From: Escherichia phage F2
Length of the DNA stretch: 64,000 nucleotides
Sequence record: NC_054913.1
Reading direction: 5' to 3' (one strand)
Of this stretch, positions 29,759-59,348 are shown in pieces. Position 1 is the first letter of the stretch, and every line of letters begins with the position of its first letter. The notes below the pieces were generated by a model that saw only the letters and a program-made list of their open reading frames with translations, searched no databases and was not told the origin of the DNA. Made by a program: the position numbers and the translations under genes.

Positions 29759-32470
29759 ATGAAAGAATTTTACTTAACGGTTGAACAGATTGGTGATTCA
29801 ATTTTTGAACGTTACATCGATTCTAACGGCCGTGAACGTACTCGTGAAGTAGAATATAAACCATCACTGTTTGCTCATTGTCCGGAAAGTCAGGCTACGA
29901 AATATTTCGATATCTACGGTAAGCCGTGTACTCGTAAGTTGTTCGCTAATATGCGTGATGCCTCACAATGGATTAAACGCATGGAAGATATCGGTCTTGA
30001 AGCACTTGGCATGGACGATTTCAAATTGGCGTATTTGTCTGACACTTATAACTATGAAATCAAATACGACCATACAAAAATTCGTGTGGCTAACTTCGAC
30101 ATCGAAGTAACATCTCCGGATGGGTTCCCTGAGCCATCACAAGCAAAACATCCGATTGATGCTATCACCCATTATGACTCAATTGACGACAGGTTCTACG
30201 TATTTGATCTATTGAATTCTCCATATGGTAATGTAGAAGAATGGTCTATCGAAATTGCGGCTAAGCTTCAAGAACAAGGTGGAGATGAAGTTCCATCTGA
30301 AATTATCGATAAAATCATTTATATGCCGTTCGATAACGAAAAAGAATTGTTGATGGAATATCTCAACTTCTGGCAACAGAAAACTCCTGTCATTTTGACT
30401 GGATGGAACGTTGAGTCATTTGATATTCCATATGTGTATAACCGAATCAAGAATATTTTTGGTGAATCTACTGCGAAACGTTTATCACCACATCGTAAAA
30501 CTCGTGTTAAAGTTATCGAAAACATGTATGGTTCTCGTGAAATCATTACATTGTTCGGTATCTCTGTTCTTGATTACATTGACCTTTACAAAAAATTCTC
30601 TTTTACCAATCAACCGTCATATTCTCTTGATTACATTTCAGAATTTGAATTGAACGTTGGTAAACTGAAATATGACGGCCCTATTTCTAAGCTTCGTGAA
30701 AGCAATCACCAACGATATATTTCTTATAACATTATCGACGTGTATCGTGTATTGCAAATTGATGCTAAGCGTCAGTTCATCAACTTGAGTTTGGACATGG
30801 GTTATTATGCTAAGATACAGATTCAATCTGTTTTTAGCCCAATTAAAACATGGGATGCTATTATTTTTAATAGCCTTAAAGAGCAGAACAAGGTGATTCC
30901 ACAAGGTCGTTCTCACCCGGTTCAACCTTATCCTGGCGCTTTTGTTAAGGAACCTATTCCAAATCGATACAAATATGTAATGAGTTTCGACCTTACATCT
31001 CTGTATCCAAGTATTATTCGCCAAGTGAATATTAGCCCAGAAACAATAGCAGGAACGTTTAAAGTAGCTCCATTGCATGATTATATTAACGCTGTTGCTG
31101 AACGTCCTTCTGATGTGTACAGTTGTTCTCCTAACGGCATGATGTATTATAAAGACCGTGATGGTGTTGTTCCAACTGAAATCACTAAGGTCTTTAATCA
31201 ACGTAAAGAACATAAAGGTTACATGCTTGCAGCTCAACGTAATGGTGAAATAATTAAAGAGGCATTGCATAATCCTAATCTTTCTGTTGACGAACCATTA
31301 GATGTTGATTATCGTTTCGACTTCAGTGATGAGATTAAAGAAAAGATTAAAAAGTTGTCTGCTAAATCTCTTAATGAAATGTTGTTTAGAGCTCAACGTA
31401 CTGAAGTTGCAGGTATGACTGCCCAAATTAACCGTAAATTGCTTATCAACTCACTTTATGGTGCACTTGGCAACGTTTGGTTCCGTTATTATGATTTGCG
31501 TAATGCTACTGCAATCACAACATTTGGTCAAATGGCTTTACAGTGGATTGAACGTAAAGTTAATGAATATCTGAATGAAGTTTGTGGCACAGAAGGTGAA
31601 GCTTTCGTTCTTTATGGTGATACAGACTCTATTTACGTATCTGCTGATAAAATTATCGATAAGGTTGGTGAATCTAAATTCCGTGATACCAACCATTGGG
31701 TAGACTTCTTAGATAAGTTTGCACGTGAACGTATGGAACCAGCTATTGATAGAGGTTTCCGTGAAATGTGTGAATACATGAACAATAAACAACACTTAAT
31801 GTTCATGGACCGAGAAGCTATCGCTGGGCCTCCACTCGGTTCTAAAGGTATTGGTGGATTCTGGACTGGTAAGAAACGTTATGCATTAAACGTGTGGGAT
31901 ATGGAAGGTACTCGTTACGCTGAGCCTAAACTCAAAATCATGGGTCTAGAGACTCAGAAATCTTCGACTCCTAAAGCAGTACAGAAAGCTCTTAAAGAAT
32001 GTATTCGTCGTATGCTTCAAGAAGGTGAAGAATCATTACAAGAATATTTTAAAGAGTTTGAAAAAGAATTCCGTCAATTGAATTATATTAGCATCGCGTC
32101 GGTATCTTCTGCGAATAACATTGCTAAATATGATGTAGGTGGATTCCCTGGTCCCAAATGTCCATTCCATATTCGTGGAATTCTGACGTATAACCGGGCT
32201 ATCAAAGGTAATATCGATGCACCGCAAGTTGTAGAAGGTGAAAAAGTATATGTTCTGCCTTTACGTGAAGGAAACCCATTCGGTGATAAATGTATCGCAT
32301 GGCCTTCTGGTACTGAAATCACAGATTTAATTAAAGACGACGTACTTCATTGGATGGACTACACTGTTCTCCTTGAGAAGACATTTATTAAACCACTTGA
32401 AGGATTCACATCAGCAGCGAAACTCGATTATGAGAAGAAAGCATCTCTGTTCGATATGTTCGATTTTTGA
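29759..32470 (+). CDS. 43: DNA polymerase gp43 (family B)
   Basis: 903 aa; N-terminus MKEFYLTVEQIGDSIFERY and exo/pol motifs (DIE, YGDTDS) match the RB69 polymerase as remembered. Confidence 0.98.
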   Translation: MKEFYLTVEQIGDSIFERYIDSNGRERTREVEYKPSLFAHCPESQATKYFDIYGKPCTRKLFANMRDASQWIKRMEDIGLEALGMDDFKLAYLSDTYNYEIKYDHTKIRVANFDIEVTSPDGFPEPSQAKHPIDAITHYDSIDDRFYVFDLLNSPYGNVEEWSIEIAAKLQEQGGDEVPSEIIDKIIYMPFDNEKELLMEYLNFWQQKTPVILTGWNVESFDIPYVYNRIKNIFGESTAKRLSPHRKTRVKVIENMYGSREIITLFGISVLDYIDLYKKFSFTNQPSYSLDYISEFELNVGKLKYDGPISKLRESNHQRYISYNIIDVYRVLQIDAKRQFINLSLDMGYYAKIQIQSVFSPIKTWDAIIFNSLKEQNKVIPQGRSHPVQPYPGAFVKEPIPNRYKYVMSFDLTSLYPSIIRQVNISPETIAGTFKVAPLHDYINAVAERPSDVYSCSPNGMMYYKDRDGVVPTEITKVFNQRKEHKGYMLAAQRNGEIIKEALHNPNLSVDEPLDVDYRFDFSDEIKEKIKKLSAKSLNEMLFRAQRTEVAGMTAQINRKLLINSLYGALGNVWFRYYDLRNATAITTFGQMALQWIERKVNEYLNEVCGTEGEAFVLYGDTDSIYVSADKIIDKVGESKFRDTNHWVDFLDKFARERMEPAIDRGFREMCEYMNNKQHLMFMDREAIAGPPLGSKGIGGFWTGKKRYALNVWDMEGTRYAEPKLKIMGLETQKSSTPKAVQKALKECIRRMLQEGEESLQEYFKEFEKEFRQLNYISIASVSSANNIAKYDVGGFPGPKCPFHIRGILTYNRAIKGNIDAPQVVEGEKVYVLPLREGNPFGDKCIAWPSGTEITDLIKDDVLHWMDYTVLLEKTFIKPLEGFTSAAKLDYEKKASLFDMFDF

Positions 32471-32510: not shown

Positions 32511-33146
32511 ATGAAAACTACTCCTATTACTATCGCTATTGACGCAATCATAAAACAAGCTTCTTCTTTGGCCGCTATGGCCAAAGTAATTAGTCAAAAC
32601 CCTGCTCGTTATAATGCTATTCTAGAAACTCTTCGACGCCCAGGACTTAGTAATTATGAAAGCCGAGTAATTATTACAGGTGTTGGTAAGAATGCTAATA
32701 TTGCAACTAAAGCTTCTGAGACATTTGCTTCACTCGGTATCCCGAGTATGTACTTGAACACTGGACATTATTCTCACGGTGATGCAGGATTCATTGCGCC
32801 TAATGATGTGTTGATTCATATTAGTCGTTCTGGTAAAACTGAAGAAATGATAGGCGTGGCTAAGCATCTTAAAATGATTCGTCCGAACGTCAAACAGATT
32901 CTGTTGCATTGTAACCCGGACATTCCACAAGAATACGAAGCTCTTTTTGATTATACGTTCTGTACAGGCATCGCAGTAGAGGTTGATGAGAATTCTCTGG
33001 CTCCGACCATGTCCACTACATTGTTGTTAGCGCTTATCGATACGTTTGCTATCAACCTTTCGTCTGAACGTGGATTTACCTCTAATGACTTCCTTAAGTT
33101 CCACCCTGGCGGTGCACTAGGTGCCATGTTACGAGGCGAACAATGA
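32511..33146 (+). CDS. SIS-domain sugar-phosphate isomerase (arabinose-5-phosphate isomerase-like)
   Basis: SIS motifs VIITGVGKNANIATKA and HISRSGKTEE. Confidence 0.75.
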   Translation: MKTTPITIAIDAIIKQASSLAAMAKVISQNPARYNAILETLRRPGLSNYESRVIITGVGKNANIATKASETFASLGIPSMYLNTGHYSHGDAGFIAPNDVLIHISRSGKTEEMIGVAKHLKMIRPNVKQILLHCNPDIPQEYEALFDYTFCTGIAVEVDENSLAPTMSTTLLLALIDTFAINLSSERGFTSNDFLKFHPGGALGAMLRGEQ

Positions 33147-33327: not shown

Positions 33328-35013
33328 ATGAAAAAAGCTGTTATTCTTGGTGCTGGACTGGCAACTCGTTTGTATCCAATAACGCATCATATTCCTAAGG
33401 TGCTTGTTAACTATAAACAAGACACTATTCTGAGCAATTTGTATACAATTTATTCTGACCTTGGCGCAGATGAAATTATTGTAGTAGTTCATTCAAAATT
33501 TGCTGAAACTGTTCGAGCTTATTGTGAGCAAGAAGGGTTCAATGTGACTATTCGTACAGTTGATGAAGCGTATGGTTCTGCTTATGCTCTTGCTAAATTG
33601 CACAAAGATTTAGACGGCCATAATGTAATTGTTAACTGGTGTGATATTATTCCTGATTTTGGTTCATGGTCTTGGAATGTTAACGCAATCTATGTTAAGG
33701 GTGACGAATGTCGATATAATTTCGACGGTGAAAATATCACTAATGTAGGTTCAACAGGTGGTAATGTTGTAGGAATTTATCAGTTCAAAGACTGGGAATT
33801 CTATATGGGTTCTACTGATGAGGAAATTCATGAATACTGCAAAGGACGTGATTTCGTAGAATTCCTTTACGGCAGCGCATTCAATAAATCAGAGCTTATG
33901 AATCTAATTGATTTAGGTGATATGCCTAAACTTGAAAAAGCTCATGAAGTTCGTGAACTTAATCGTAGTTTTAATGCAGTTGAAATTGGTGAAGAAACTG
34001 TAACTAAATTCGCATTAACCGAACAGGGCCGAGCTCTTCAGAAAGATGAGATTTCATGGTATCTTAAAGTGAAATCAGATTCAGTTCCTCAGTTAGTTTC
34101 TGTTAATGAAAATAACTTTGAAATGGAACGCATTAAAGGTAAGCCGGCATTTGAATATATTAAATCCAAATCAAGTCTTGCTCGTCCACAAATTGTTGAT
34201 GCAATTTTAGATGCACTGAAATTCAGCACAGACACTTATTTTGTAAGTCCTGAAACTGTTCGTCGTGATTTCACTAAAGAATTCTATACTAAAGTTATTG
34301 ATCGTTGTGAAAGTATTCAACCATTGATTGATTCATTTGGTAAAATCACACATGTGAACTACACTAAGATCGGACGTCTGAAGCCAATGTTGAAACAAGC
34401 TTTAGAACACCTTATTCGTTATCATAACCGTTCTCAGGGACAGTACTCTGTTATTCATGGTGACCCGAACTTCAGTAATACTATGATTACTGATAACGGC
34501 GAAGTCAAGTTTATCGACCCTCGTGGATATTTTGGTGAAACCAAGATTTACGGGCCAAAATTGTATGATGAAGCTAAAGTGCTTTACGCTGTTTCAGGTT
34601 ATGATGAATTCAACGCTAATCCGACTTGGGGACAGTTTACTATTGATGAAACAACTTGTAATGTGACTATTAACATCAATCCATTAGTTTACAAATATGG
34701 AAAGATGAGTTCGTTTAACGAGTATCATCATTTGGCAGTGGCAATTATCTGGATTGCATTAGGTGGTTATTTCAAGAATAATCCACTTAAAGCGGTAGCC
34801 GCATATTATAAAGGTATGGAACTTCTGACTAAGCAATTACGTAATATGGGCCGTGTACTTCAAGACGGCTCTATTAGTTATGACGTAGCAGAACCTGTAA
34901 CGGCTACTCTGATTACAAAAAATCCTGGTAAATGGGTACTAACTGATAAAGAAACTGGTGTTTCCTATCGTCCAATCGGTGGCGATATCACTCATCAATG
35001 GGAACGAATCTAA
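33328..35013 (+). CDS. bifunctional sugar-1-phosphate nucleotidyltransferase / sugar kinase
   Basis: N-terminal GAGLATRLYPIT (RmlA-type NTP-transferase signature); C-terminal kinase-like HGDPNFSNTMI...KFIDPRG (APH/choline-kinase-like). Confidence 0.8.
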   Translation: MKKAVILGAGLATRLYPITHHIPKVLVNYKQDTILSNLYTIYSDLGADEIIVVVHSKFAETVRAYCEQEGFNVTIRTVDEAYGSAYALAKLHKDLDGHNVIVNWCDIIPDFGSWSWNVNAIYVKGDECRYNFDGENITNVGSTGGNVVGIYQFKDWEFYMGSTDEEIHEYCKGRDFVEFLYGSAFNKSELMNLIDLGDMPKLEKAHEVRELNRSFNAVEIGEETVTKFALTEQGRALQKDEISWYLKVKSDSVPQLVSVNENNFEMERIKGKPAFEYIKSKSSLARPQIVDAILDALKFSTDTYFVSPETVRRDFTKEFYTKVIDRCESIQPLIDSFGKITHVNYTKIGRLKPMLKQALEHLIRYHNRSQGQYSVIHGDPNFSNTMITDNGEVKFIDPRGYFGETKIYGPKLYDEAKVLYAVSGYDEFNANPTWGQFTIDETTCNVTININPLVYKYGKMSSFNEYHHLAVAIIWIALGGYFKNNPLKAVAAYYKGMELLTKQLRNMGRVLQDGSISYDVAEPVTATLITKNPGKWVLTDKETGVSYRPIGGDITHQWERI

Positions 35014-35399
35014 TGCACCGTGTAGAAAACATGCTTAATCTTTGTTTTGATGTCGACGATTGTATAACAGAGTGGAATAACAATCGTGATTACGTGAACT
35101 TCAAGCCAGACGTCGAAATGGTGACTGCCATTAATGCCCTGTATGATGCAGGGCATACCATAACGCTTTACACTGCTCGCGGTATGAAGTCAGTCGGTCC
35201 TGGTCGTATAGCAATTGACATTCTCCCAAGTCTGATTCAGAACTTGGCAAACATTGGATTGAAGTACCATAATTTGCTAACACATAAACCAGTATATGAT
35301 TGGATTATCGACGACAAAGCTATGCGTCCTGACGAATTCAAAGCTCTTATGAATAAAGGCGAATTCGAAACATTTAAATCATATAAACCGAATCTATAA
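35013..35399 (+). CDS. HAD-superfamily phosphatase
   Basis: Motif I FDVDDCIT; motif II TLYTARG; ATG 35013 overlaps upstream stop. Confidence 0.65.
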   Translation: MHRVENMLNLCFDVDDCITEWNNNRDYVNFKPDVEMVTAINALYDAGHTITLYTARGMKSVGPGRIAIDILPSLIQNLANIGLKYHNLLTHKPVYDWIIDDKAMRPDEFKALMNKGEFETFKSYKPNL

Positions 35400-35446: not shown

Positions 35447-36616
35447 ATGCAAAAAATGAATACCTTTAAAATCGGAACGAATTTTGATTTAGCTCTTCTT
35501 GATAAAATCGTAGAGCTCAATAAAACTTATCCTAATAGCTTGATAAACGAAGTATACGGCTCTACAAGAGAAATGGCTTTTGTAGCAGCCAGACCTGATT
35601 TTAGGCTTCCTGACGTTGACAAAAAGATGTTAGAAGATTACGTTAAACGTTGTAACGAATTAGGTATTTGCTTTAACTATACACTCAACACGATAAATCC
35701 TGGTTCAAAAAGAGAACTAGTTGAGTGGAAGAAGAAAGCTATTCAGGACTATGTTCAGTATCTTTGGTCAATAGGCGTATGGCGTATTACTATCGCTAAC
35801 CCTGTTGTTATGGAAATTGTTCGTGAAGTCAATAAAGACATTGAGATTGAAGTTTCAACAATTCTACATGTCGATGCTGTAACTCAAATCAAATACTTGC
35901 ATGACCAATATAATATCAAAAAGGTCTGCTGTGGAATTCATAAGAACCGTTCAGTTTCTTTCCTGAAGCGTGCAGCAGAGTTTTGTAATAAGAACAATAT
36001 AATATTTGAAGTTCTTGTAAATGAGTTCTGTTCTAATGCTGGTAAAGGGTATACAACACATTGTAGCTATCGTGACTCTTGCTATATTTTCCATAGCACC
36101 GATGTTACAGTAGATGATGCCAAATCCTTAAATGGATATCCAATGCAGCACTGTATTAAAGCTCGTGATACAGACCCATTTAACTGGTTGAGAACTCGTT
36201 TTGTTCGTCCTCAAGATTTGAAACTTTATAATGATATTGGTATCACTCAATTCAAAGTTTCAGGACGTACAGGTAGCACCGACTACATTTTGAAAGTTCT
36301 TGAAGCTTACGCTTCTGAAAAGTTTGAAGGTAATTTGTTGGAATTGTGGAAGCCTTTAGAGACCATTTTCACTCTTGAAAATGAGACTGAGTTTTCACAT
36401 ACGGTAAATATTGAAACCTCTTTGTTAGATGGCTTTTTAGAAAAAAGGTGGTTCAAACATCCAGATTTCGATTGTGCTAATGAAATCTGCGGGACGACGT
36501 GTACATATTGTGAAAGATATTATAAACGTCAGTTATCTAAAAATGGGTTATCAGAAAACTCTATATCTATTATTGATATAACTAACTCTGATGACGCTTT
36601 GAGGTACCCAGAATGA
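35447..36616 (+). CDS. hypothetical enzyme, Cys-rich (function unassigned)
   Basis: 389-aa ORF with GGCGAG RBS; C-terminal Cys cluster CANEICGTTCTYCERYY. Confidence 0.55.
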   Translation: MQKMNTFKIGTNFDLALLDKIVELNKTYPNSLINEVYGSTREMAFVAARPDFRLPDVDKKMLEDYVKRCNELGICFNYTLNTINPGSKRELVEWKKKAIQDYVQYLWSIGVWRITIANPVVMEIVREVNKDIEIEVSTILHVDAVTQIKYLHDQYNIKKVCCGIHKNRSVSFLKRAAEFCNKNNIIFEVLVNEFCSNAGKGYTTHCSYRDSCYIFHSTDVTVDDAKSLNGYPMQHCIKARDTDPFNWLRTRFVRPQDLKLYNDIGITQFKVSGRTGSTDYILKVLEAYASEKFEGNLLELWKPLETIFTLENETEFSHTVNIETSLLDGFLEKRWFKHPDFDCANEICGTTCTYCERYYKRQLSKNGLSENSISIIDITNSDDALRYPE

Positions 36617-36762
36617 TTTCTAGAAAAACTTTTAACCACCAACTTAACGAAGAGATTTTGACTATTAAAATTAACAGCAACGAACAAATTCTTAAAAAGG
36701 CCCTTATGGGCCTGTTTGAAACTAAAGCGGCTAAAGTGATTAAAGAACCTGTTCAATTGTAA
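36613..36762 (+). CDS. small hypothetical protein (49 aa)
   Basis: ATG overlapping upstream stop. Confidence 0.3.
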   Translation: MISRKTFNHQLNEEILTIKINSNEQILKKALMGLFETKAAKVIKEPVQL

Positions 36763-36850
36763 TACTACGCTGATGCATTTCTTCATAGTGTTCTTGGAAG
36801 TATCGATGCTGAAGCTTTACGTTATATCAACATCGCTAAGAAATTCAAAT

Positions 36851-36875
36851 AAGCTTTATGAATTGAGTATATAAT
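36851..36875 (+). promoter_or_regulatory. T4-type middle promoter
   Basis: aGCTTTA 36851-36857, 12-bp spacer, tataat 36870-36875. Confidence 0.5.
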
Positions 36876-36894
36876 AAATTGTATTGAGGTAAAC

Positions 36895-37611
36895 ATGGGA
36901 AAACATAACACAATGAAATATATTAAAGCCGCAGATTTTCAATCCGCATTTAAAGCTGTCAATCGTGAAATTTTAGAAAACCCGGAATTCGTTACTGATT
37001 CTCGTATTGGACGTTGTAATGAAATTGGGTCTATGACAGTAGTTGTTGATACCCCTTCATCATTCAAAATGACAGACCCACGTATTAATCGCATCTCTTA
37101 TGAATATGCTGAAGATTTCTGGAAATTTATGATTTCTGGTGGTACTGATGCAGAAGAAGCATTTAAGGCATATCCTAACGTTGCTAAATTTATTTCTAAA
37201 CCTAAATCAGATGCTTTGCCTGCAAACTTCAACACTTTCTACGGTCCACGAATTGCGGCCCAGTTACCAACTCTTCTAAAAGAACTTAAAGAAAAACCTA
37301 ACTCTCGAAGAGTTGTGTTCCAAATTCTAGAAAGTTCTGATCAGGCTTTGCTTGATTCAGACGAAACACTTGAATATCCATGTACTGACTCAGTGACTTA
37401 TTATATTCGTGATGGTAAGCTTTATACCCACTGTCATATGCGTTCTCAGAACTGTGCTGTTGTTATGCAGTTGGATTTTTATCTCCAAGGAAAATTACTT
37501 CATTATATCGCTAACGAATGTGGTGTAGAAGTTGGTGATTATACTCATACCATGGTAAGTGCCCATGTGTTTGAACGTGATTTTGATTATGTTAAAGGAT
37601 TCCTTGTCTAA
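36895..37611 (+). CDS. 42: dCMP hydroxymethylase (thymidylate-synthase fold)
   Basis: Position and conserved pattern NSRR...CTDSVTYYIRD...MRSQN...SAHVFERDF resembling T4 gp42. Confidence 0.7.
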   Translation: MGKHNTMKYIKAADFQSAFKAVNREILENPEFVTDSRIGRCNEIGSMTVVVDTPSSFKMTDPRINRISYEYAEDFWKFMISGGTDAEEAFKAYPNVAKFISKPKSDALPANFNTFYGPRIAAQLPTLLKELKEKPNSRRVVFQILESSDQALLDSDETLEYPCTDSVTYYIRDGKLYTHCHMRSQNCAVVMQLDFYLQGKLLHYIANECGVEVGDYTHTMVSAHVFERDFDYVKGFLV

Positions 37612-38510
37612 TGGCTATTTTCCGCGTACCTATCTTGAGTATGCGGTCTTATGAAACTGGACAGTATGCTATCCTTAAGGATGGCAACTTCCAACTTCAT
37701 TTGCACCGTGCTAATCCGGGTGATGTGATTACATATCCACGTAATGCATCTGATATTAAAGAATGCGAACGTCTTTTCCCAGAATTTAAGTTTGTTCCAT
37801 TATGGTATAAAGATAACGCATATAACACTCGTAAATATTTCTGGTCTGAAAATGAATTTGTGGTTGATTCATTAATTGATTATTATGATTGTGATTTTCT
37901 AATCACAGATATCACTGGATATGACGGCAATTTTGACGTAGAATTCAATTTCAATATCACTGCAGACCCTAATAAACCACGTTTTTATATTGACGAATTC
38001 TTAAAAACCGACATGTTGTCTGTTAATCGTTCACTTCAAACTACTGTGTTGAATGAACGTCAAAAAGAAGTGCTGGTTAACGCAGGTGCAGATGGTAATA
38101 AGATTATCGTAACGCAGAAAGTTATACGTCCTTCCATCATGCAGCGTCTTGTAGGTGATTTGGCTCCTATTCATCTAGATGGTATTTTTCATCCATTTCG
38201 AATTAGTGACCCGTGCTATCGTTTTGAACAAGTGGTTGAATGTGCAATTCAATTAGGTCAACCGCTTTATATAACCGATCCAAATAATAGCTTCGACAGA
38301 AATAAGTATCCTGAAGAAGCGCTGATTCGAATTTTTAAACCAACTAAAACTGAGTACTATCAAATTCTTAAAGGACGTCCGAAGATTCAATACTTCGAAA
38401 ATCCTGAAGAAGTATTCCATCCAGGTCTTGGCGAGTTCATCTACTTTAATGCTTTAATTTCTTCGCCGTATAATATACCTAAATATGAAGATGTCGTAAT
38501 CGAGGAATAA
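37611..38510 (+). CDS. hypothetical protein in beta-gt position (candidate DNA sugar transferase)
   Basis: 299-aa ORF replacing T4 beta-gt between 42 and uvsX; no recognisable beta-gt similarity. Confidence 0.5.
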   Translation: MAIFRVPILSMRSYETGQYAILKDGNFQLHLHRANPGDVITYPRNASDIKECERLFPEFKFVPLWYKDNAYNTRKYFWSENEFVVDSLIDYYDCDFLITDITGYDGNFDVEFNFNITADPNKPRFYIDEFLKTDMLSVNRSLQTTVLNERQKEVLVNAGADGNKIIVTQKVIRPSIMQRLVGDLAPIHLDGIFHPFRISDPCYRFEQVVECAIQLGQPLYITDPNNSFDRNKYPEEALIRIFKPTKTEYYQILKGRPKIQYFENPEEVFHPGLGEFIYFNALISSPYNIPKYEDVVIEE

Positions 38511-38511
38511 A

Positions 38512-39060
38512 ATGGCTAAAATTATTTTAGTAGATGGCCCGGATAATGCTGGTAAAACAACTTTCATTAATGACATAATGGAAATTAGTGAAAGATATGT
38601 AAAGATTGATTTCCCTAAACGAACAGTTGATGGACGTTTCGATGTTAAGTCTCGAAATGAAGTTGGCTGTTTCGAAACGATGTTGAATTATTTAGACCCT
38701 ACTAAGATTTATCTGTTAGACCGTGGATATATTAGTAACTGGGTTTATGGACGTATTCGACAAGATGCGGACTCGGTTCTTGACGTTTATGAACAGGATT
38801 ATGTTCGTCTTTGCCAAAACCATGATGTGTTCACAATTATTTTAACACGTAACGAAATGACTGAAAGTTTTGAAGACGACCTTATTACTTTGTCTTCATT
38901 CAGGTTTAATACAGTCATTTCGTATTTTGAAGAGTTTGCAATTCATAACGAAATCCAAACGTATCAATTACTTAATCATGATGGTGCTAACAAAGTTATA
39001 GGATTTAATGCAAGCGAACGTAATAATTTGATTACAGAAATTATCAAATGGGCTCGTTAA
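38512..39060 (+). CDS. P-loop nucleoside/nucleotide kinase-like protein
   Basis: Walker A VDGPDNAGKTT at N-terminus; 182 aa. Confidence 0.6.
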   Translation: MAKIILVDGPDNAGKTTFINDIMEISERYVKIDFPKRTVDGRFDVKSRNEVGCFETMLNYLDPTKIYLLDRGYISNWVYGRIRQDADSVLDVYEQDYVRLCQNHDVFTIILTRNEMTESFEDDLITLSSFRFNTVISYFEEFAIHNEIQTYQLLNHDGANKVIGFNASERNNLITEIIKWAR

Positions 39061-39159
39061 GAGCCTGTTTAAAGTTTTAAATGCTGTATAACCCTTAGTA
39101 TATAATCGTCTTATCTTTTAAACATGAGTAAAATATAATGATGCCTATGGAAAAATACA

Positions 39160-40332
39160 ATGTCTGATTTAAAATCTCGTCTGATTAAAGCTTCTACTTC
39201 TAAAATGACTGCAGACTTGACTAAGTCTAAGCTGTTTAATAATCGTGATGAAGTCCCTACTCGTATTCCGATGTTGAATATTGCATTAGGTGGTGCACTG
39301 AATGCTGGGTTGCAATCAGGCTTAACTATTTTTGCTGCTCCTTCTAAACACTTTAAAACGTTGTTTGGACTGACCATGGTTGCAGCATATATGAAGAAAT
39401 ATAAAGATGCAATTTGTTTGTTCTATGATTCGGAATTTGGTGCTTCAGAATCTTATTTTCGTTCAATGGGTGTTGATTTAGACCGTGTAGTTCATACTCC
39501 GATTCAATCTGTCGAACAACTTAAAGTTGATATGACTAATCAGCTTGACGCGATTGAACGCGGTGATAAAGTTATTATCTTTATCGATTCAATCGGTAAT
39601 ACTGCATCTAAGAAAGAAACTGAAGATGCATTGAACGAGAAAGTTGTAGGTGATATGTCTCGTGCTAAGGCACTTAAATCTCTGTTCCGCATTGTGACTC
39701 CTTATCTGACTATTAAAGATATTCCATGTGTTGCAATCAACCATACAGCAATGGAAATCGGTGGATTGTATCCTAAAGAGATTATGGGTGGTGGTACAGG
39801 TATTCTTTACTCTGCTAACACTGTATTCTTTATCTCTAAACGTCAGGTTAAAGAAGGTACAGAATTGACCGGTTATGACTTCACGTTGAAAGCAGAAAAA
39901 TCTCGCACCGTTAAAGAAAAATCTACTTTCCCAATCACGGTTAATTTCGATGGTGGTATTGACCCATTCAGTGGCTTGTTAGAAATGGCAACTGAAATCG
40001 GTTTTGTAGTTAAGCCTAAAGCCGGGTGGTATGCTCGAGAATTCCTTGACGAAGAAACAGGCGAAATGATTCGTGAAGAGAAATCATGGCGTGCTAAAGC
40101 TACTGATTGTGTAGAATTCTGGGGACCGTTGTTTAAACACAAACCTTTCCGAGATGCAATTGAAACTAAATATAAACTAGGTGCTATCTCTTCTATTAAA
40201 GAAGTTGATGATGCTGTTAACGACCTTATTAATTGCAAAGCAACAACTAAAGTTCCGGTTAAAACTTCTGATGCTCCTTCTGCAGCAGATATAGAAAACG
40301 ACCTTGACGAAATGGAAGATTTCGATGAATAA
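39160..40332 (+). CDS. uvsX: recombinase UvsX (RecA-like)
   Basis: 390 aa; Walker A GAPSKHFKT; matches T4 UvsX. Confidence 0.95.
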   Translation: MSDLKSRLIKASTSKMTADLTKSKLFNNRDEVPTRIPMLNIALGGALNAGLQSGLTIFAAPSKHFKTLFGLTMVAAYMKKYKDAICLFYDSEFGASESYFRSMGVDLDRVVHTPIQSVEQLKVDMTNQLDAIERGDKVIIFIDSIGNTASKKETEDALNEKVVGDMSRAKALKSLFRIVTPYLTIKDIPCVAINHTAMEIGGLYPKEIMGGGTGILYSANTVFFISKRQVKEGTELTGYDFTLKAEKSRTVKEKSTFPITVNFDGGIDPFSGLLEMATEIGFVVKPKAGWYAREFLDEETGEMIREEKSWRAKATDCVEFWGPLFKHKPFRDAIETKYKLGAISSIKEVDDAVNDLINCKATTKVPVKTSDAPSAADIENDLDEMEDFDE

Positions 40333-47133: not shown

Positions 47134-47655
47134 ATGGCACACTTTAACGAATGTTCACAACTTATTTCTGGTGTTGATAAAGCAGAAGAAGCTTATTTTA
47201 ATGCCCTGATTCACGAAGATAAAGACCCGCTGCAGGTAATGCTTGATATGCAGAAATCTTTACAGGTTCGTCTGGCAAATGACAAGCCTGAACATAACAA
47301 ACATCCTGATGAATTGGCTACTGCTGGTGATGTTGTTGATTGGCTGCGTAATCAGAAAGATTATATTGATGATGAATTCCGTGAACTGCTGACTTCACTT
47401 GGTGGTATGAGCAATGGTGAAAAGGCCGCTAGCTCTGTATGGAAGCCGTGGAAGGCCCAGCATGCTGAATATCGAAATCGTCGTATCGATGAACTGTCTC
47501 CTGAAGACCAGCTTGAAATTAAATTCGAGATGATTGATATTCTGCATTTCGTTCTAAATATGTTCCAAGGTCTAGGACTTTCTGCTGAAGAAATCTTCAA
47601 ACTGTATTACCTGAAAAACCAACACAACTTTGAACGCCAGGATAATGGTTACTAA
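47134..47655 (+). CDS. 56: dCTP pyrophosphatase gp56
   Basis: MAHFNEC...DPLQVMLDMQ...LEIKFEMIDILHFVLNMF matches T4 gp56. Confidence 0.95.
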   Translation: MAHFNECSQLISGVDKAEEAYFNALIHEDKDPLQVMLDMQKSLQVRLANDKPEHNKHPDELATAGDVVDWLRNQKDYIDDEFRELLTSLGGMSNGEKAASSVWKPWKAQHAEYRNRRIDELSPEDQLEIKFEMIDILHFVLNMFQGLGLSAEEIFKLYYLKNQHNFERQDNGY

Positions 47656-58247: not shown

Positions 58248-59348
58248 ATGAAAGTTATGTTTATCCCATCTCGTGCAGTCCCGTTTAATCCTGACCGTGT
58301 ACAAGGTGGCCTTGAAGCAGTACATTTAAATGTGTTGAAATATCTTGTGTCCATCGGCGCTGATATTGATTATATCGGCTTTGATAATGACACGTTTGGT
58401 GATTGGAAAGTTACACACCATCCTGTTGGTCATCTGACTAAATTCAGTCTAGGTATGAGTTATACTATGGCTCGTAAGATTGTTGAACTAGCCGGCATCC
58501 ATGAATACGATTTTGTTGTTACTATGGAACCGACTAAACTAACCGTTCAGGCAATTAAAGACGCAGGTCTCTCTAAAGTTCATAAGAATTTTATGGCAAC
58601 ACCATTTGAACCGGTATCTCGTGGCATTGTTCAAATTTGGGACCAGACTATTCAAATTCATAAGAATGGTGGTAAGAGTTATGCTCCTACTAAAGCCTTC
58701 CGTGAATTTGAACGCAAATATTGTTATATGACTTCAGGTCTGACTGACAAAATTGATTATGATTATTGGCGAGCAAATCCGTTGTTTGAAGCCGAAGATT
58801 ATCCGGTTATTTGTTTGAATGAGAAACCTGAAGTTCTTCCGGCGACTGATCTGATTATTAGTGCACAACGTTATGACACTAAAATGCGTCGCACTGATGT
58901 TGCTCTTGAAGCAATTAAAGCACTAGGCGAAAATGGTGTAGGATACTGTCCAAGCAAATGGGCACCACCAGCTAAATATCCTGTTATTATTGATGCTCCA
59001 CACAGTGAAATCATGGAACGTCTTAAAACAGCTAAAGCACTTATTAATACTTGTCCTGACACAGGTACAGTAGAGAATAGTTCTATTGAAGCCATCTCTA
59101 AAGGTGTCCCTGTAATCCAGTTAGTTTTTAAGGATTATCCTCATGCGACATTTGAATACGACCCAGATACTGTGCGTGTAGAAATTGATTCCTCTACTCC
59201 TAAGAAAGAAGTAGTTGCGCTTTACACAAAAGCTGTATTAGAATTCACTGATACATACGAAGCTCGAGTTAAACGTGCTGAAGCAGTATGGAAGAAGTAT
59301 AACCGAGATGCAGTTGTTGCGATGTGGGATAAAATCTTCACAGCGTAA
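58248..59348 (+). CDS. putative GT-B-fold glycosyltransferase (candidate hmC sugar transferase)
   Basis: N-terminal GT4-like pattern PDRVQGGLEAVHLNVLKYL; 366 aa; located between 39 and rIIA. Confidence 0.55.
   Translation: MKVMFIPSRAVPFNPDRVQGGLEAVHLNVLKYLVSIGADIDYIGFDNDTFGDWKVTHHPVGHLTKFSLGMSYTMARKIVELAGIHEYDFVVTMEPTKLTVQAIKDAGLSKVHKNFMATPFEPVSRGIVQIWDQTIQIHKNGGKSYAPTKAFREFERKYCYMTSGLTDKIDYDYWRANPLFEAEDYPVICLNEKPEVLPATDLIISAQRYDTKMRRTDVALEAIKALGENGVGYCPSKWAPPAKYPVIIDAPHSEIMERLKTAKALINTCPDTGTVENSSIEAISKGVPVIQLVFKDYPHATFEYDPDTVRVEIDSSTPKKEVVALYTKAVLEFTDTYEARVKRAEAVWKKYNRDAVVAMWDKIFTA

What the first reader, a model, noticed from the sequence alone, without database searches (positions are those of the whole stretch)
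38512..39060. P-loop kinase immediately downstream of the beta-gt-position ORF
A Walker A motif (GPDNAGKTT) at the extreme N-terminus and the size (182 aa) suggest a small nucleoside/nucleotide kinase. Its position between the modification genes and uvsX suggests a role in supplying modified dNTPs, but the substrate is unknown.
Basis: inference. Interest (0 to 1): 0.4.

Follow-up and report, generated by a model that had tools for sequence, protein, structure and literature searches.

The report
Thymidylate-kinase-like kinase in 5-hydroxycytosine cluster
This is a real, conserved phage gene for a small thymidylate-kinase-like enzyme that always travels with the genes that replace cytosine by sugar-coated 5-hydroxycytosine; it was already predicted in print to be a nucleotide kinase, but its substrate has never been tested.

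Summary
Window 38512-39060 (+) is a 182-aa ORF with a Walker A loop (GPDNAGKTT, residues 9-17), translationally coupled to the upstream glycosyltransferase and followed by uvsX. The window is a Mosigvirus (RB69-like T-even phage). The ORF is RB69ORF045c/RB69p045 (98.5% nt identity) and is under purifying selection (dN/dS 0.13-0.19).

It belongs to a small phage family. That family co-occurs almost one-to-one with the ThyA-like 5-hydroxy-dCMP synthase (D169N signature) in Straboviridae and metagenomic phages, with a remote relative in Pootjesviridae.

Best guess: ATP-dependent phosphorylation of 5-hydroxy-dCMP. Caveat: the T4 gp1-type kinase (RB69 gp159) already performs that step in vitro, so the true substrate is open.

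The prediction "nucleotide kinase of the arabinosylation cluster" was published in 2021 and 2026. The finding is already known, and only the open substrate question is of moderate interest.

The parts
38512..39060 (+). CDS of the 182-aa thymidylate-kinase-like P-loop kinase (homologue of RB69ORF045c / RB69p045, DLP3 gp78, Thanatos TH1_064)
38536..38562 (+). Walker A / P-loop G9-PDNAG-K15-T16-T17. D11 sits where the P-loop acidic residue of TMPKs sits (E. coli EGLEGAGKTT, human EGVDRAGKST).
38611..38622 (+). F34-P35-K36-R37 motif after strand 2. F34, P35 and K36 are invariant in the family.
38719..38730 (+). D70-R71-G72-Y73, the counterpart of the TMPK DR(Y/F/H) motif. R71 is invariant and D70 >=90% conserved across 94 family members.
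38848..38886 (+). Lid region: invariant R113 followed by the family-specific F120-x-D122-D123-L124-I125 motif. The model has lower confidence here.
38502..38506 (+). GAGGA ribosome-binding site inside the end of the upstream GT gene, 5 nt before the ATG (translational coupling)
   Evidence: read from the sequence
37611..38510 (+). 299-aa GT-B glycosyltransferase, the proposed first (alpha) arabinosyltransferase. It corresponds to RB69 gp46:47 and is a single ORF here.
36895..37611 (+). ThyA homologue, the 5-hydroxy-dCMP synthase (RB69 gp48). It carries the MRSQN motif, i.e. the D169N signature.
35447..36616 (+). Peptidase-U32-family protein (RB69 gp50), part of the cluster, role unknown
34998..35399 (+). 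HAD-type phosphatase (RB69 gp51 / AfhF-like)
33328..35013 (+). 561-aa bifunctional nucleotidyltransferase plus APH-like kinase (RB69 gp52:53 / AfhE-like). It makes UDP-arabinofuranose.
32511..33146 (+). 211-aa ORF in the position of RB69ORF055c (arabinose-5-phosphate isomerase, the gene annotated at the same position in HY126 and AV112)
47134..47655 (+). gp56 dCTPase homologue (97% identical to RB69 gp56). It supplies dCMP and removes dCTP.
58248..59348 (+). Homologue of RB69ORF003c (99% identity), the proposed second (beta) arabinosyltransferase

Best explanation
The gene encodes a catalytically competent, highly divergent member of the thymidylate-kinase (NMP-kinase) fold. It is a dedicated component of the phage's 5-hydroxycytosine DNA-modification module.

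Most likely mechanism: it binds ATP-Mg through the N-terminal P-loop (K15, T16) and D70. It binds a deoxypyrimidine 5'-monophosphate through the FPKR, R42, R48-N49-E50, F54 and D70-R71 elements. It then transfers the gamma-phosphate to the nucleotide's 5'-phosphate.

The preferred acceptor is inferred to be 5-hydroxy-dCMP, the product of the neighbouring ThyA-like synthase. The product, 5-hydroxy-dCDP, would be converted by host NDK to the triphosphate, polymerised, and arabinosylated.

Shown here: the ORF, its conservation, the fold, the intact catalytic motifs, and cluster co-occurrence. Inferred: kinase activity, the nucleotide as substrate, and the identity of that nucleotide.

I put about 0.75 on 'active nucleotide kinase belonging to this pathway' and 0.4 on the specific substrate 5-hydroxy-dCMP.
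For: Fold and family:
- AF2 model with pLDDT 87.8 and pTM 0.85.
- A 94-sequence profile hits YorR at 7e-21 and TMPKs at 1e-13 to 1e-9 over the full length.
- PHROG phrog_761 'thymidylate kinase' scores 4e-45.
- BFVD hits are viral TMPKs.

Catalytic kit: G9, D11, G14, K15, T16, F34, P35, K36, R42, R48, D70, R71 and R113 are invariant in 19 homologues. K15 and R71 are invariant, and G9, D11, G14, D70 and Y79 are >=90% conserved, in 94 members.

Selection: dN/dS 0.13-0.19.

Pathway link:
- The gene is always inside the ThyA-homologue/GT cluster although its position shifts. Examples: RB69 and the window ThyA-GT-kinase; JS98 HAD-kinase-ThyA-GT; DLP3 ThyA-GT-kinase-GT-GT; F48 HAD-kinase-U32-x-ThyA-GT; Thanatos ThyA-GT-kinase-U32.
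- Distant metagenomic members sit next to a ThyA homologue in all 4 informative contexts.
- All 8 neighbouring ThyA homologues that I aligned carry the D169N signature of 5hodCMP synthases (signature from PMC13326640).
- In the phage collection, 342 records have the kinase and 374 have the 5hoC-type ThyA, with identical counts per host genus for 8 of the 9 genera listed (Klebsiella 25 vs 26). 907 records share the flanking pol/uvsX/gp41 DNA.
- Pootjesviridae attach hexoses, not arabinose, to 5hoC. They keep ThyA-GT plus a remotely related TMPK-like kinase. This ties the kinase to the base or nucleotide rather than to arabinose synthesis.
- More distant relatives are fused to, or adjacent to, dCMP deaminase. 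That fits deoxypyrimidine mononucleotide metabolism.
Against: - No biochemical test of this protein exists in the papers I could read. Its assignment in PMC13326640 Table 1 ('Nucleotide kinase') and in PMC8056088 is computational only.
- RB69 gp159, the T4 gp1-type dNMP kinase, converts 5hodCMP to 5hodCDP in vitro. Together with gp48 it suffices to put 5hodC into E. coli DNA. This kinase is therefore not needed for that step in a heterologous system.
- Pootjesviridae also carry both kinases in one cluster, which argues for distinct jobs.
- Sequence similarity to bona fide TMPKs is marginal: no Pfam or NCBIfam model reaches its cut-off.
- The base-binding segment is much shorter and carries a different conserved motif (SRNEV...FET), so substrate cannot be read off by homology.
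- The lid carries an invariant acidic FxDD motif rather than the basic residues typical of TMPK lids.
- Some relatives are fused to DNA-glycosylase domains, which hints at a link to DNA.
Confidence: 0.4

Rival explanations
1. The kinase acts on the glycosylated mononucleotide. The first arabinosyltransferase (gp46:47) would add alpha-arabinofuranose to 5-hydroxy-dCMP before replication. This kinase, with an opened base pocket, would then phosphorylate arabinosyl-5-hydroxy-dCMP, which the gp1-type kinase cannot accept. A glycosylated dNTP would be what the polymerase incorporates.
For: - It explains why a second NMP kinase is universally retained next to the gp1-type enzyme.
- It explains why the kinase so often directly follows the first GT: the window, DLP3, Thanatos, L014, L015 and Pootjesviridae.
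- The published in vitro work found no activity of the individual GTs on 5hoC-containing DNA. [quoted passage not shown]
- The NMP-binding segment is about 26 residues shorter than in E. coli Tmk (read).
- The invariant lid carboxylates D122 and D123 could bind sugar hydroxyls (inference).
Against: - All characterised phage DNA glycosylations are post-replicative.
- The later arabinoses are added on DNA.
- In JS98 and F48 the kinase is not adjacent to the GT.
- In L013 and L009 the kinase follows the ThyA homologue with no GT in between.
- No evidence exists that the polymerase accepts an arabinosylated dCTP.
Confidence: 0.12
2. It is a general or different deoxynucleotide kinase (dTMP, dUMP, dGMP or dCMP, or a deoxynucleoside kinase). 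It would boost dNTP supply and merely be linked to the cluster by descent.
For: - Many databases name it thymidylate kinase.
- Phages often carry their own TMPK.
Against: - The near one-to-one co-occurrence with 5hoC-type ThyA, and absence from more than 500 T-even relatives that make dTTP equally well, is not expected for a housekeeping dTMP kinase.
- The gp1-type kinase already covers dTMP and dGMP in T-even phages (established knowledge of T4 gp1).
- The protein fails the curated TMPK thresholds.
Confidence: 0.12
3. It works at the DNA level. Either it is a base kinase acting on the 5-hydroxyl of 5hoC in DNA (analogous to the 5-hmU DNA kinases), or it is an ATP-dependent accessory subunit that the first arabinosyltransferase needs in order to act on DNA.
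For: - Close family members (HMM E 1e-37 and 1e-34) are fused to an MBD4-like HhH-GPD DNA-glycosylase domain that keeps the catalytic Asp.
- More distant relatives are fused to a UDG-superfamily domain.
- In DLP3 the gene is embedded among three GT genes.
- The isolated GTs were inactive on 5hoC DNA, and gp76 and gp77 need each other.
- There is precedent for P-loop kinases that phosphorylate a base in DNA (PMC8989533).
Against: - The protein is not related to known 5-HMUDKs beyond the P-loop region: hhalign against M6 gp54 gives 82% probability over the N-terminal half only, ViI gp67 gives 12%, and the HMM score is 12 bits against 204 for the window protein.
- A phosphate on an aromatic C5-oxygen has no obvious role, because the sugar is attached through that same oxygen.
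- There is no aGPT-Pplase/AADT partner in the cluster.
- The protein has the FPKR and DR motifs of mononucleotide kinases.
Confidence: 0.08
4. It supports the sugar donor. It would act as a UMP/UDP (or other NMP) kinase that regenerates UTP for the very large demand of UDP-arabinofuranose synthesis.
For: - It is a cluster member together with the UDP-Araf pathway genes.
- In JS98 and F48 it lies next to the HAD phosphatase and the AfhE-like gene.
Against: - The GT reaction releases UDP, which host NDK recycles, so no UMP is produced in the pathway described.
- Pootjesviridae use host UDP-hexoses yet keep a related kinase next to ThyA-GT.
- At 182 aa the protein lacks the extra lid elements of PPK2.
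- A P-loop Asp at D11 is typical of deoxyribose-specific TMPKs (established knowledge, not tested here).
Confidence: 0.07

Closest known systems
RB69 gp45 (RB69ORF045c, NP_861735.1) and its orthologues DLP3 gp78 and Thanatos TH1_064
   Same: It is the same gene: 98.5% nt identity to RB69, 46% aa identity to DLP3 gp78, 43% to TH1_064. It has the same cluster context. It is listed as 'Nucleotide kinase' in Table 1 of PMC13326640 and as a thymidylate-kinase homologue presumably involved in the arabinosyl modification in PMC8056088.
   Different: Nothing material. The window copy differs from RB69 by 8 nt and 3-4 aa. [quoted passage not shown]
Thymidylate kinase (dTMP kinase, EC 2.7.4.9; Pfam PF02223; e.g. 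PDB 5x7j, 2v54, 4dwj, 2pbr/4s35)
   Different: - Only 14-19% identity.
- Below every curated family threshold.
- About 20-30 residues shorter, mostly in the NMP-binding segment.
- The base-recognition helix carries SRNEV..FET instead of the TMPK F-x3-R pattern.
- The lid has an invariant FxDDLI motif.
- It occurs only in 5-hydroxycytosine clusters.
YorR of Bacillus subtilis prophage SPbeta (PDB 2axp / 3kb2)
   Different: YorR is itself uncharacterised. It is not in a 5hoC cluster, and it lacks the FxDD lid motif (alignment).
T4 gp1-type deoxynucleoside monophosphate kinase (PDB 1dek/1del; RB69 gp159)
   Same: The same proposed reaction class. gp159 is the enzyme shown to phosphorylate 5hodCMP.
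5-hydroxymethyluracil DNA kinases (5-HMUDK: M6 gp54, ViI gp67)
   Same: These are also small phage P-loop kinases encoded in base-hypermodification clusters next to ThyA homologues. Relatives of both occur fused to HhH glycosylase-like domains.
   Different: There is no significant similarity beyond the P-loop half. They phosphorylate a hydroxymethyl group on DNA to create a leaving group, a chemistry that has no place in an O-glycosylated 5-hydroxycytosine.

Membership tests
Thymidylate kinase family (Pfam PF02223 / TIGR00041) | N-terminal P-loop GxxxxGK[ST] with an acidic residue at the third position | tested here: met
   G9-P-D11-N-A-G14-K15-T16. It aligns with E. coli EGLEGAGKTT and human EGVDRAGKST.
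Thymidylate kinase family (Pfam PF02223 / TIGR00041) | TMPK three-dimensional fold | tested here: met
Thymidylate kinase family (Pfam PF02223 / TIGR00041) | DR(Y/F/H) motif following strand 3 | tested here: met
   D70-R71-G72-Y73. It aligns with DRF of Aquifex TMPK and of YorR.
Thymidylate kinase family (Pfam PF02223 / TIGR00041) | Score above the curated family cut-off | tested here: not met
   PF02223 is not reported even at E<=1. TIGR00041 scores 15.6 bits against a cut-off of 83.25.
Thymidylate kinase family (Pfam PF02223 / TIGR00041) | Thymine-recognition elements (stacking Phe plus Arg to O4) and dTMP kinase activity | tested here: inconclusive
   The profile alignment places V45 and N49 (or R48 with a one-residue shift) at these positions. 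No coordinates were available for a pocket check. Activity is not testable here.
5hoC-cluster kinase family (RB69 gp45 / DLP3 gp78 type; phrog_761) | Sequence membership | tested here: met
   phrog_761 at 4e-45. 98.5% nt identity to RB69ORF045c. 204 bits to the family HMM.
5hoC-cluster kinase family (RB69 gp45 / DLP3 gp78 type; phrog_761) | Encoded in a cluster with a D169N ThyA homologue (5hodCMP synthase) | tested here: met
   The ThyA homologue at 36895-37611 carries MRSQN and lies two genes upstream. The same holds in 7 other aligned loci.
T4 gp1-type dNMP kinase | Fold and sequence similarity to 1dek | tested here: not met
[quoted passage not shown] | Sequence similarity to M6 gp54 or ViI gp67 | tested here: not met
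   hhalign gives 82% probability over the N-terminal 84 columns only (M6) and 12% (ViI). The HMM score is 12 bits.
[quoted passage not shown] | Co-occurrence with an aGPT-Pplase/AADT transferase gene | tested here: not met
   No such gene was found among the six cluster ORFs between 33328 and 39060 that were scanned.
Polyphosphate kinase 2 | PPK2 core of about 230 aa with extra lid helices, and polyP-dependent activity | not tested

The most novel reading that the evidence does not exclude
The first sugar is added before replication. The GT encoded immediately upstream would arabinosylate 5-hydroxy-dCMP, and this kinase would be the dedicated enzyme that phosphorylates the bulky arabinosyl-5-hydroxy-dCMP. 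The phage polymerase would then incorporate an already glycosylated dCTP. That would be the first case of a pre-replicative, nucleotide-level DNA glycosylation pathway. It would also explain why these phages keep two dNMP kinases.
Probability: 0.1. Interest if true: 0.8.

Novelty: already known. Interest (0 to 1): 0.3.

Why it matters
The gene itself and its predicted class are already in the literature, so the finding adds no new kind of system.

What remains open is why every 5-hydroxycytosine phage keeps this second nucleotide kinase beside the gp1-type enzyme that can already phosphorylate 5-hydroxy-dCMP. This holds from E. coli Mosigviruses to Acinetobacter, Shewanella and metagenomic phages, with a remote relative in Rhizobium phages. 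The question can be tested directly.

The answer bears on where the first sugar is attached, on the nucleotide or on DNA. The published reconstitutions explicitly left that point unresolved.

A kinase with defined specificity for 5-hydroxy- or glycosyl-dCMP would also be a useful tool for making modified dNTPs enzymatically.

Tried and rejected
- Curated family libraries. Pfam and NCBIfam give only sub-threshold P-loop matches: AAA_14 0.037, MMR_HSR1, TIGR00041 15.6 bits, and a spurious IS4 transposase hit. None is usable for classification.
- The shallow 19-sequence profile against PDB. RecA concatemers came top, an artefact of summed weak P-loop matches. This was rejected. A 94-sequence profile gave clean YorR and TMPK hits.
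- hhalign of the family against single TMPK sequences. No residue-by-residue mapping of the base pocket was possible.
- Model coordinates are not exposed to scripts, so no pocket or electrostatics analysis was done.
- The 5-HMUDK hypothesis was tested against M6 gp54 and ViI gp67 and rejected as a family assignment.
- The ViI 'dnk' next to thyA is unrelated. ORF-170, two genes downstream of the ThyA homologue in Tenacibaculum phage PTm1, is also unrelated.
- Literature. He et al. 2026 (Nat Chem Biol, the Afh genes of phage HY126) and Mahler et al. 2025 (Cell Host Microbe) are not held. Searches for Afh gene names and for the locus tags found no assay of this protein. The HY126 GenBank record calls it hypothetical.
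- The promoter/terminator scan of the cluster found no more sites than shuffled sequence gives.

Full report
**What is there**

Window 38512-39060 (+) is a 182-aa ORF (ATG to TAA) with G9-PDNAG-K15-T16-T17 at 38536-38562. It starts one base after the stop codon of the 299-aa ORF 37611-38510, with GAGGA 5 nt upstream of the ATG. It is followed after 99 nt by uvsX (39160-40332), gp40 and gp41.

Megablast shows the window is a Mosigvirus, that is, an RB69-like T-even coliphage. The ORF is 100% identical to phage PNJ-6 and 98.5% identical to RB69ORF045c, and it is present in 154 records at >=90% identity.

It is a genuine gene. Homologues at 36-72% identity occur in Winklervirus, Dhakavirus, Marfavirus, Lazarusvirus and others, 342 phage records in all. 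An alignment of 19 homologues has 37 invariant positions. dN/dS is 0.15-0.19 against RB69 and HY126 and 0.13 against LC53.

**The surroundings**

The neighbouring genes are not the hmC/glucosyl system of T4. Going upstream:
- 37611-38510: a GT-B glycosyltransferase (RB69 gp46:47).
- 36895-37611: a ThyA homologue (RB69 gp48).
- 36613-36762: a small ORF.
- 35447-36616: a peptidase-U32-family protein (gp50).
- 34998-35399: a HAD phosphatase (gp51).
- 33328-35013: a 561-aa nucleotidyltransferase plus APH-like kinase (gp52:53).
- 32511-33146: an ORF in the position of the arabinose-5-phosphate isomerase (gp55).
- 29759-32470: DNA polymerase.

These assignments rest. The dCTPase (47134-47655) and the second GT (RB69 gp3 homologue, 58248-59348) are also in the window.

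Lee et al., NAR 2026 (PMC13326640) showed three things:
- RB69 DNA carries mono- and di-arabinofuranosylated 5-hydroxycytosine, not arabinosyl-hmC.
- gp48 is a flavin-dependent 5-hydroxy-dCMP synthase.
- The gp1-type dNMP kinase gp159 converts 5hodCMP to 5hodCDP.

They cite He et al. 2026 for the AfhE/AfhF route to UDP-arabinofuranose.

**What the protein is**

Curated libraries do not classify it. Pfam gives only AAA_14 and MMR_HSR1 below threshold, and NCBIfam gives TIGR00041 dTMP kinase at 15.6 bits against a cut-off of 83. PHROGs places it in phrog_761 'thymidylate kinase' at 4e-45.

An exhaustive profile search of 1.84 billion representatives finds only 319 relatives at E<=1e-3 and 44 at E<=1e-10, so this is a small family. 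A 94-member profile of these hits SPbeta YorR (2axp) at 7e-21 and TMPKs at 1e-13 to 1e-9 over the full length.

Motifs that define catalysis in this fold are invariant: the P-loop, F34-P35-K36(-R37), D70-R71, and R113 in the lid. The FPKR motif aligns with FPER of human TMPK. Family-specific invariants are R42, R48-N49-E50, F54-E55-T56, S75-N76 and F120-x-D122-D123-L124-I125.

The protein is thus a divergent member of the TMPK-like NMP-kinase superfamily and very probably active. It fails the curated TMPK thresholds, and its base-binding segment differs, so I do not file it as a thymidylate kinase proper.

**Link to the 5-hydroxycytosine pathway**

The gene's position inside the cluster varies, which argues for functional rather than accidental linkage:
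- RB69 and the window: ThyA-GT-kinase-uvsX.
- JS98: HAD-kinase-ThyA-GT.
- DLP3: ThyA-GT-kinase-GT-GT.
- F48: HAD-kinase-U32-x-ThyA-GT.
- Thanatos: ThyA-GT-kinase-U32-chorismate mutase.

Distant metagenomic members sit beside a ThyA homologue in every informative contig:
- L014: SIS-594aa-HAD-ThyA-273aa-kinase-dCMP deaminase.
- L015: ThyA-300aa-kinase-dCMP deaminase.
- L013 and L009: the ThyA gene followed by a kinase fused to another domain.

All eight neighbouring ThyA homologues that I aligned have MRS[QN]N, the D169N signature that Lee et al. use to diagnose 5hodCMP synthases.

In the phage collection the kinase is found in 342 records and the 5hoC-type ThyA in 374, with near-identical genus counts:

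| Genus | Kinase | 5hoC-type ThyA |
|---|---|---|
| Escherichia | 175 | 175 |
| Acinetobacter | 57 | 57 |
| Shigella | 15 | 15 |
| Enterobacter | 9 | 9 |
| Serratia | 9 | 9 |
| Proteus | 7 | 7 |
| Yersinia | 6 | 6 |
| Klebsiella | 25 | 26 |

The surplus is mainly 22 Rhizobium phages. Those Pootjesviridae decorate 5hoC with hexoses. They have ThyA-GT followed by a remote TMPK-like protein (HMM E 5e-12, better than human or E. coli TMPK at 1e-8 and 3e-7).

By contrast, 907 records share the flanking pol/uvsX/gp41 DNA. Well over 500 T-even relatives therefore lack the kinase. The kinase follows the modified base, not the particular sugar and not T-even phages in general.

**Most likely mechanism**

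The parsimonious reading is an ATP-dependent deoxypyrimidine-monophosphate kinase whose acceptor is the product of the adjacent synthase, 5-hydroxy-dCMP. It would form a portable three-gene module (synthase, kinase, transferase) able to install the modification in any phage background.

The following are shown: the gene, its conservation, the fold, the intact catalytic residues and the co-occurrence. The following are inferred: activity, the nucleotide as substrate, and the identity of the nucleotide.

The main weakness is redundancy. gp159 already performs this step in vitro, and gp48 plus gp159 suffice in E. coli. Pootjesviridae carry a gp1-type dNMP kinase and the TMPK-like protein in the same cluster. 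I therefore give 0.4 to the specific substrate and about 0.75 to 'active nucleotide kinase of this pathway'.

**Rivals**

(a) A kinase for arabinosyl-5-hydroxy-dCMP, with the first sugar added at the nucleotide level. This would explain the second kinase and its frequent position right after the first GT. It is not excluded by the published work. That work found the individual GTs inactive on 5hoC DNA and states that the site of the first arabinosylation is unresolved. There is no positive evidence, and all known phage DNA glycosylations are post-replicative.

(b) A housekeeping dTMP or other dNMP kinase. This is disfavoured by the co-occurrence pattern.

(c) A DNA-level role, either as a base kinase or as a GT accessory. 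This is hinted at by fusions of close relatives to an MBD4-like glycosylase domain (E 1e-9 to PDB 4ew4, catalytic Asp retained) and of distant relatives to a UDG domain. However, the protein is not related to the known 5-hmU DNA kinases beyond the P-loop, and phosphorylating the very oxygen that carries the sugar makes no chemical sense.

(d) UMP/UDP phosphorylation for the sugar donor. The pathway as described releases UDP, which host NDK recycles, and Pootjesviridae keep a related kinase without an arabinose pathway.

**Comparison with what is known, and novelty**

Several GenBank records already call it thymidylate kinase. I found no assay of it in any paper I could read.

What remains is the unanswered question of its substrate.

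**Verdict**

Novelty: already known. Interest: 0.3, for the open two-kinase question and the small chance that it marks nucleotide-level glycosylation.

Noticed in passing
window 35447-36616 and 36613-36762; L006 3897-5407; L021 31927-33317: The cluster's peptidase-U32-family gene (RB69 gp50) has a weak UbiU hit. In Serratia phage LC53 and Shewanella phage Thanatos it is followed by a chorismate mutase type II gene (Pfam CM_2, 2e-11 and 2e-8). Chorismate mutase is also annotated next to the ThyA homologue in Klebsiella KLB31 and Erwinia Virsaitis27.

From general knowledge, U32 proteins (UbiU/V, TrhP, RlhA) are prephenate-dependent, O2-independent hydroxylases, and RlhA makes 5-hydroxycytidine in rRNA. 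The pair could be an anaerobic route to 5-hydroxycytosine alongside the O2/flavin-dependent ThyA homologue. The NAR 2026 table labels gp50 only as 'sugar or heterocycle reductase'.
   Followed up: partly
window 36613-36894: The small ORF after the U32 gene is cut to 49 aa by a TAA where RB69 ORF049c (79 aa) has GAA (..PVQL*YYADAF.. against ..PVQLEYYADAF..). HY126 annotates only 40 aa here. The gene in the chorismate-mutase position appears to be decaying in Mosigviruses, and neither version hits CM_2.
   Followed up: partly
L009 8001-9074; L013 1446-2390; L010 127-1092 (proteins P0058, P0060, P0065, P0067, P0069, P0075, P0076, P0122): In metagenomic phages the same kinase family (HMM E 1e-37 and 1e-34) is fused at its C-terminus to an MBD4-like HhH-GPD DNA-glycosylase domain (PDB 4ew4, 1e-9). 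The GxGKYAxDS motif with the catalytic Asp is retained. In L013 and L009 the fusion sits directly after a D169N ThyA homologue. More distant relatives are fused to a UDG-superfamily domain (P0155) or to dCMP deaminase (P0172). The purpose of a kinase-glycosylase fusion in a 5-hydroxycytosine phage is unexplained.
   Followed up: partly
L009 5129-12512: A metagenomic contig carries what looks like a complete alternative 5hoC/arabinose cluster. It comprises dCMP deaminase, dUTPase, a 394-aa ThyA homologue with an N-terminal extension and the D169N signature, the kinase-MBD4 fusion, an FMN reductase (a possible supplier of reduced flavin for the synthase), a SIS isomerase and a 624-aa AfhE-like protein. 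No GT-B gene lies within the 12.8 kb seen.
   Followed up: no
window 37611-38510 and 33328-35013 versus L001 6099-6999 and 1816-3502: The GT and the nucleotidyltransferase/kinase are single ORFs (299 aa and 561 aa) in the window. In the RB69 reference record each is split in two (ORF047c/046c and ORF053c/052c). This agrees with the published statement that the RB69 splits are sequencing errors.
   Followed up: yes
window 39082-39106: Between the kinase stop and uvsX there is a TGCTGTA element (one mismatch from the T4 MotA-box core TGCTTTA, recalled from memory) 12 nt upstream of TATAAT (39101-39106). This spacing is expected of a T4-type middle promoter for uvsX. It would make the kinase the last gene of the modification transcription unit. 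The generic sigma-70 scan did not list it.
   Followed up: no
L018 3910-7433 (Rhizobium phage RHph_N34): Pootjesviridae place a gp1-type dNMP kinase, a dCTP pyrophosphatase, the ThyA homologue, a GT and a TMPK-like protein in one run. The TMPK-like protein has GKDT in the P-loop and A-R where the family has D-R, so its catalytic competence is uncertain.
   Followed up: partly
L019 3716-8468 (Tenacibaculum phage PTm1): A ThyA homologue 38% identical to the window's synthase lies beside a 'guanylyltransferase' and a histidine phosphatase. ORF-170, two genes downstream of the ThyA homologue, has no P-loop and no similarity to the kinase family, and the other neighbouring ORFs were not checked. 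No kinase homologue was found there.
   Followed up: partly
literature: PMC12838424 (Thanatos TH1_063, orthologue of window 37611-38510): The orthologue of the upstream GT was reported to form UDP-xylose from UTP and xylose-1-phosphate in vitro. It did not glycosylate plasmid DNA, dCMP, dCTP or cytosine. Together with the negative DNA assays in PMC13326640, this leaves the true acceptor of the first transferase unestablished in the papers available here.
   Followed up: no
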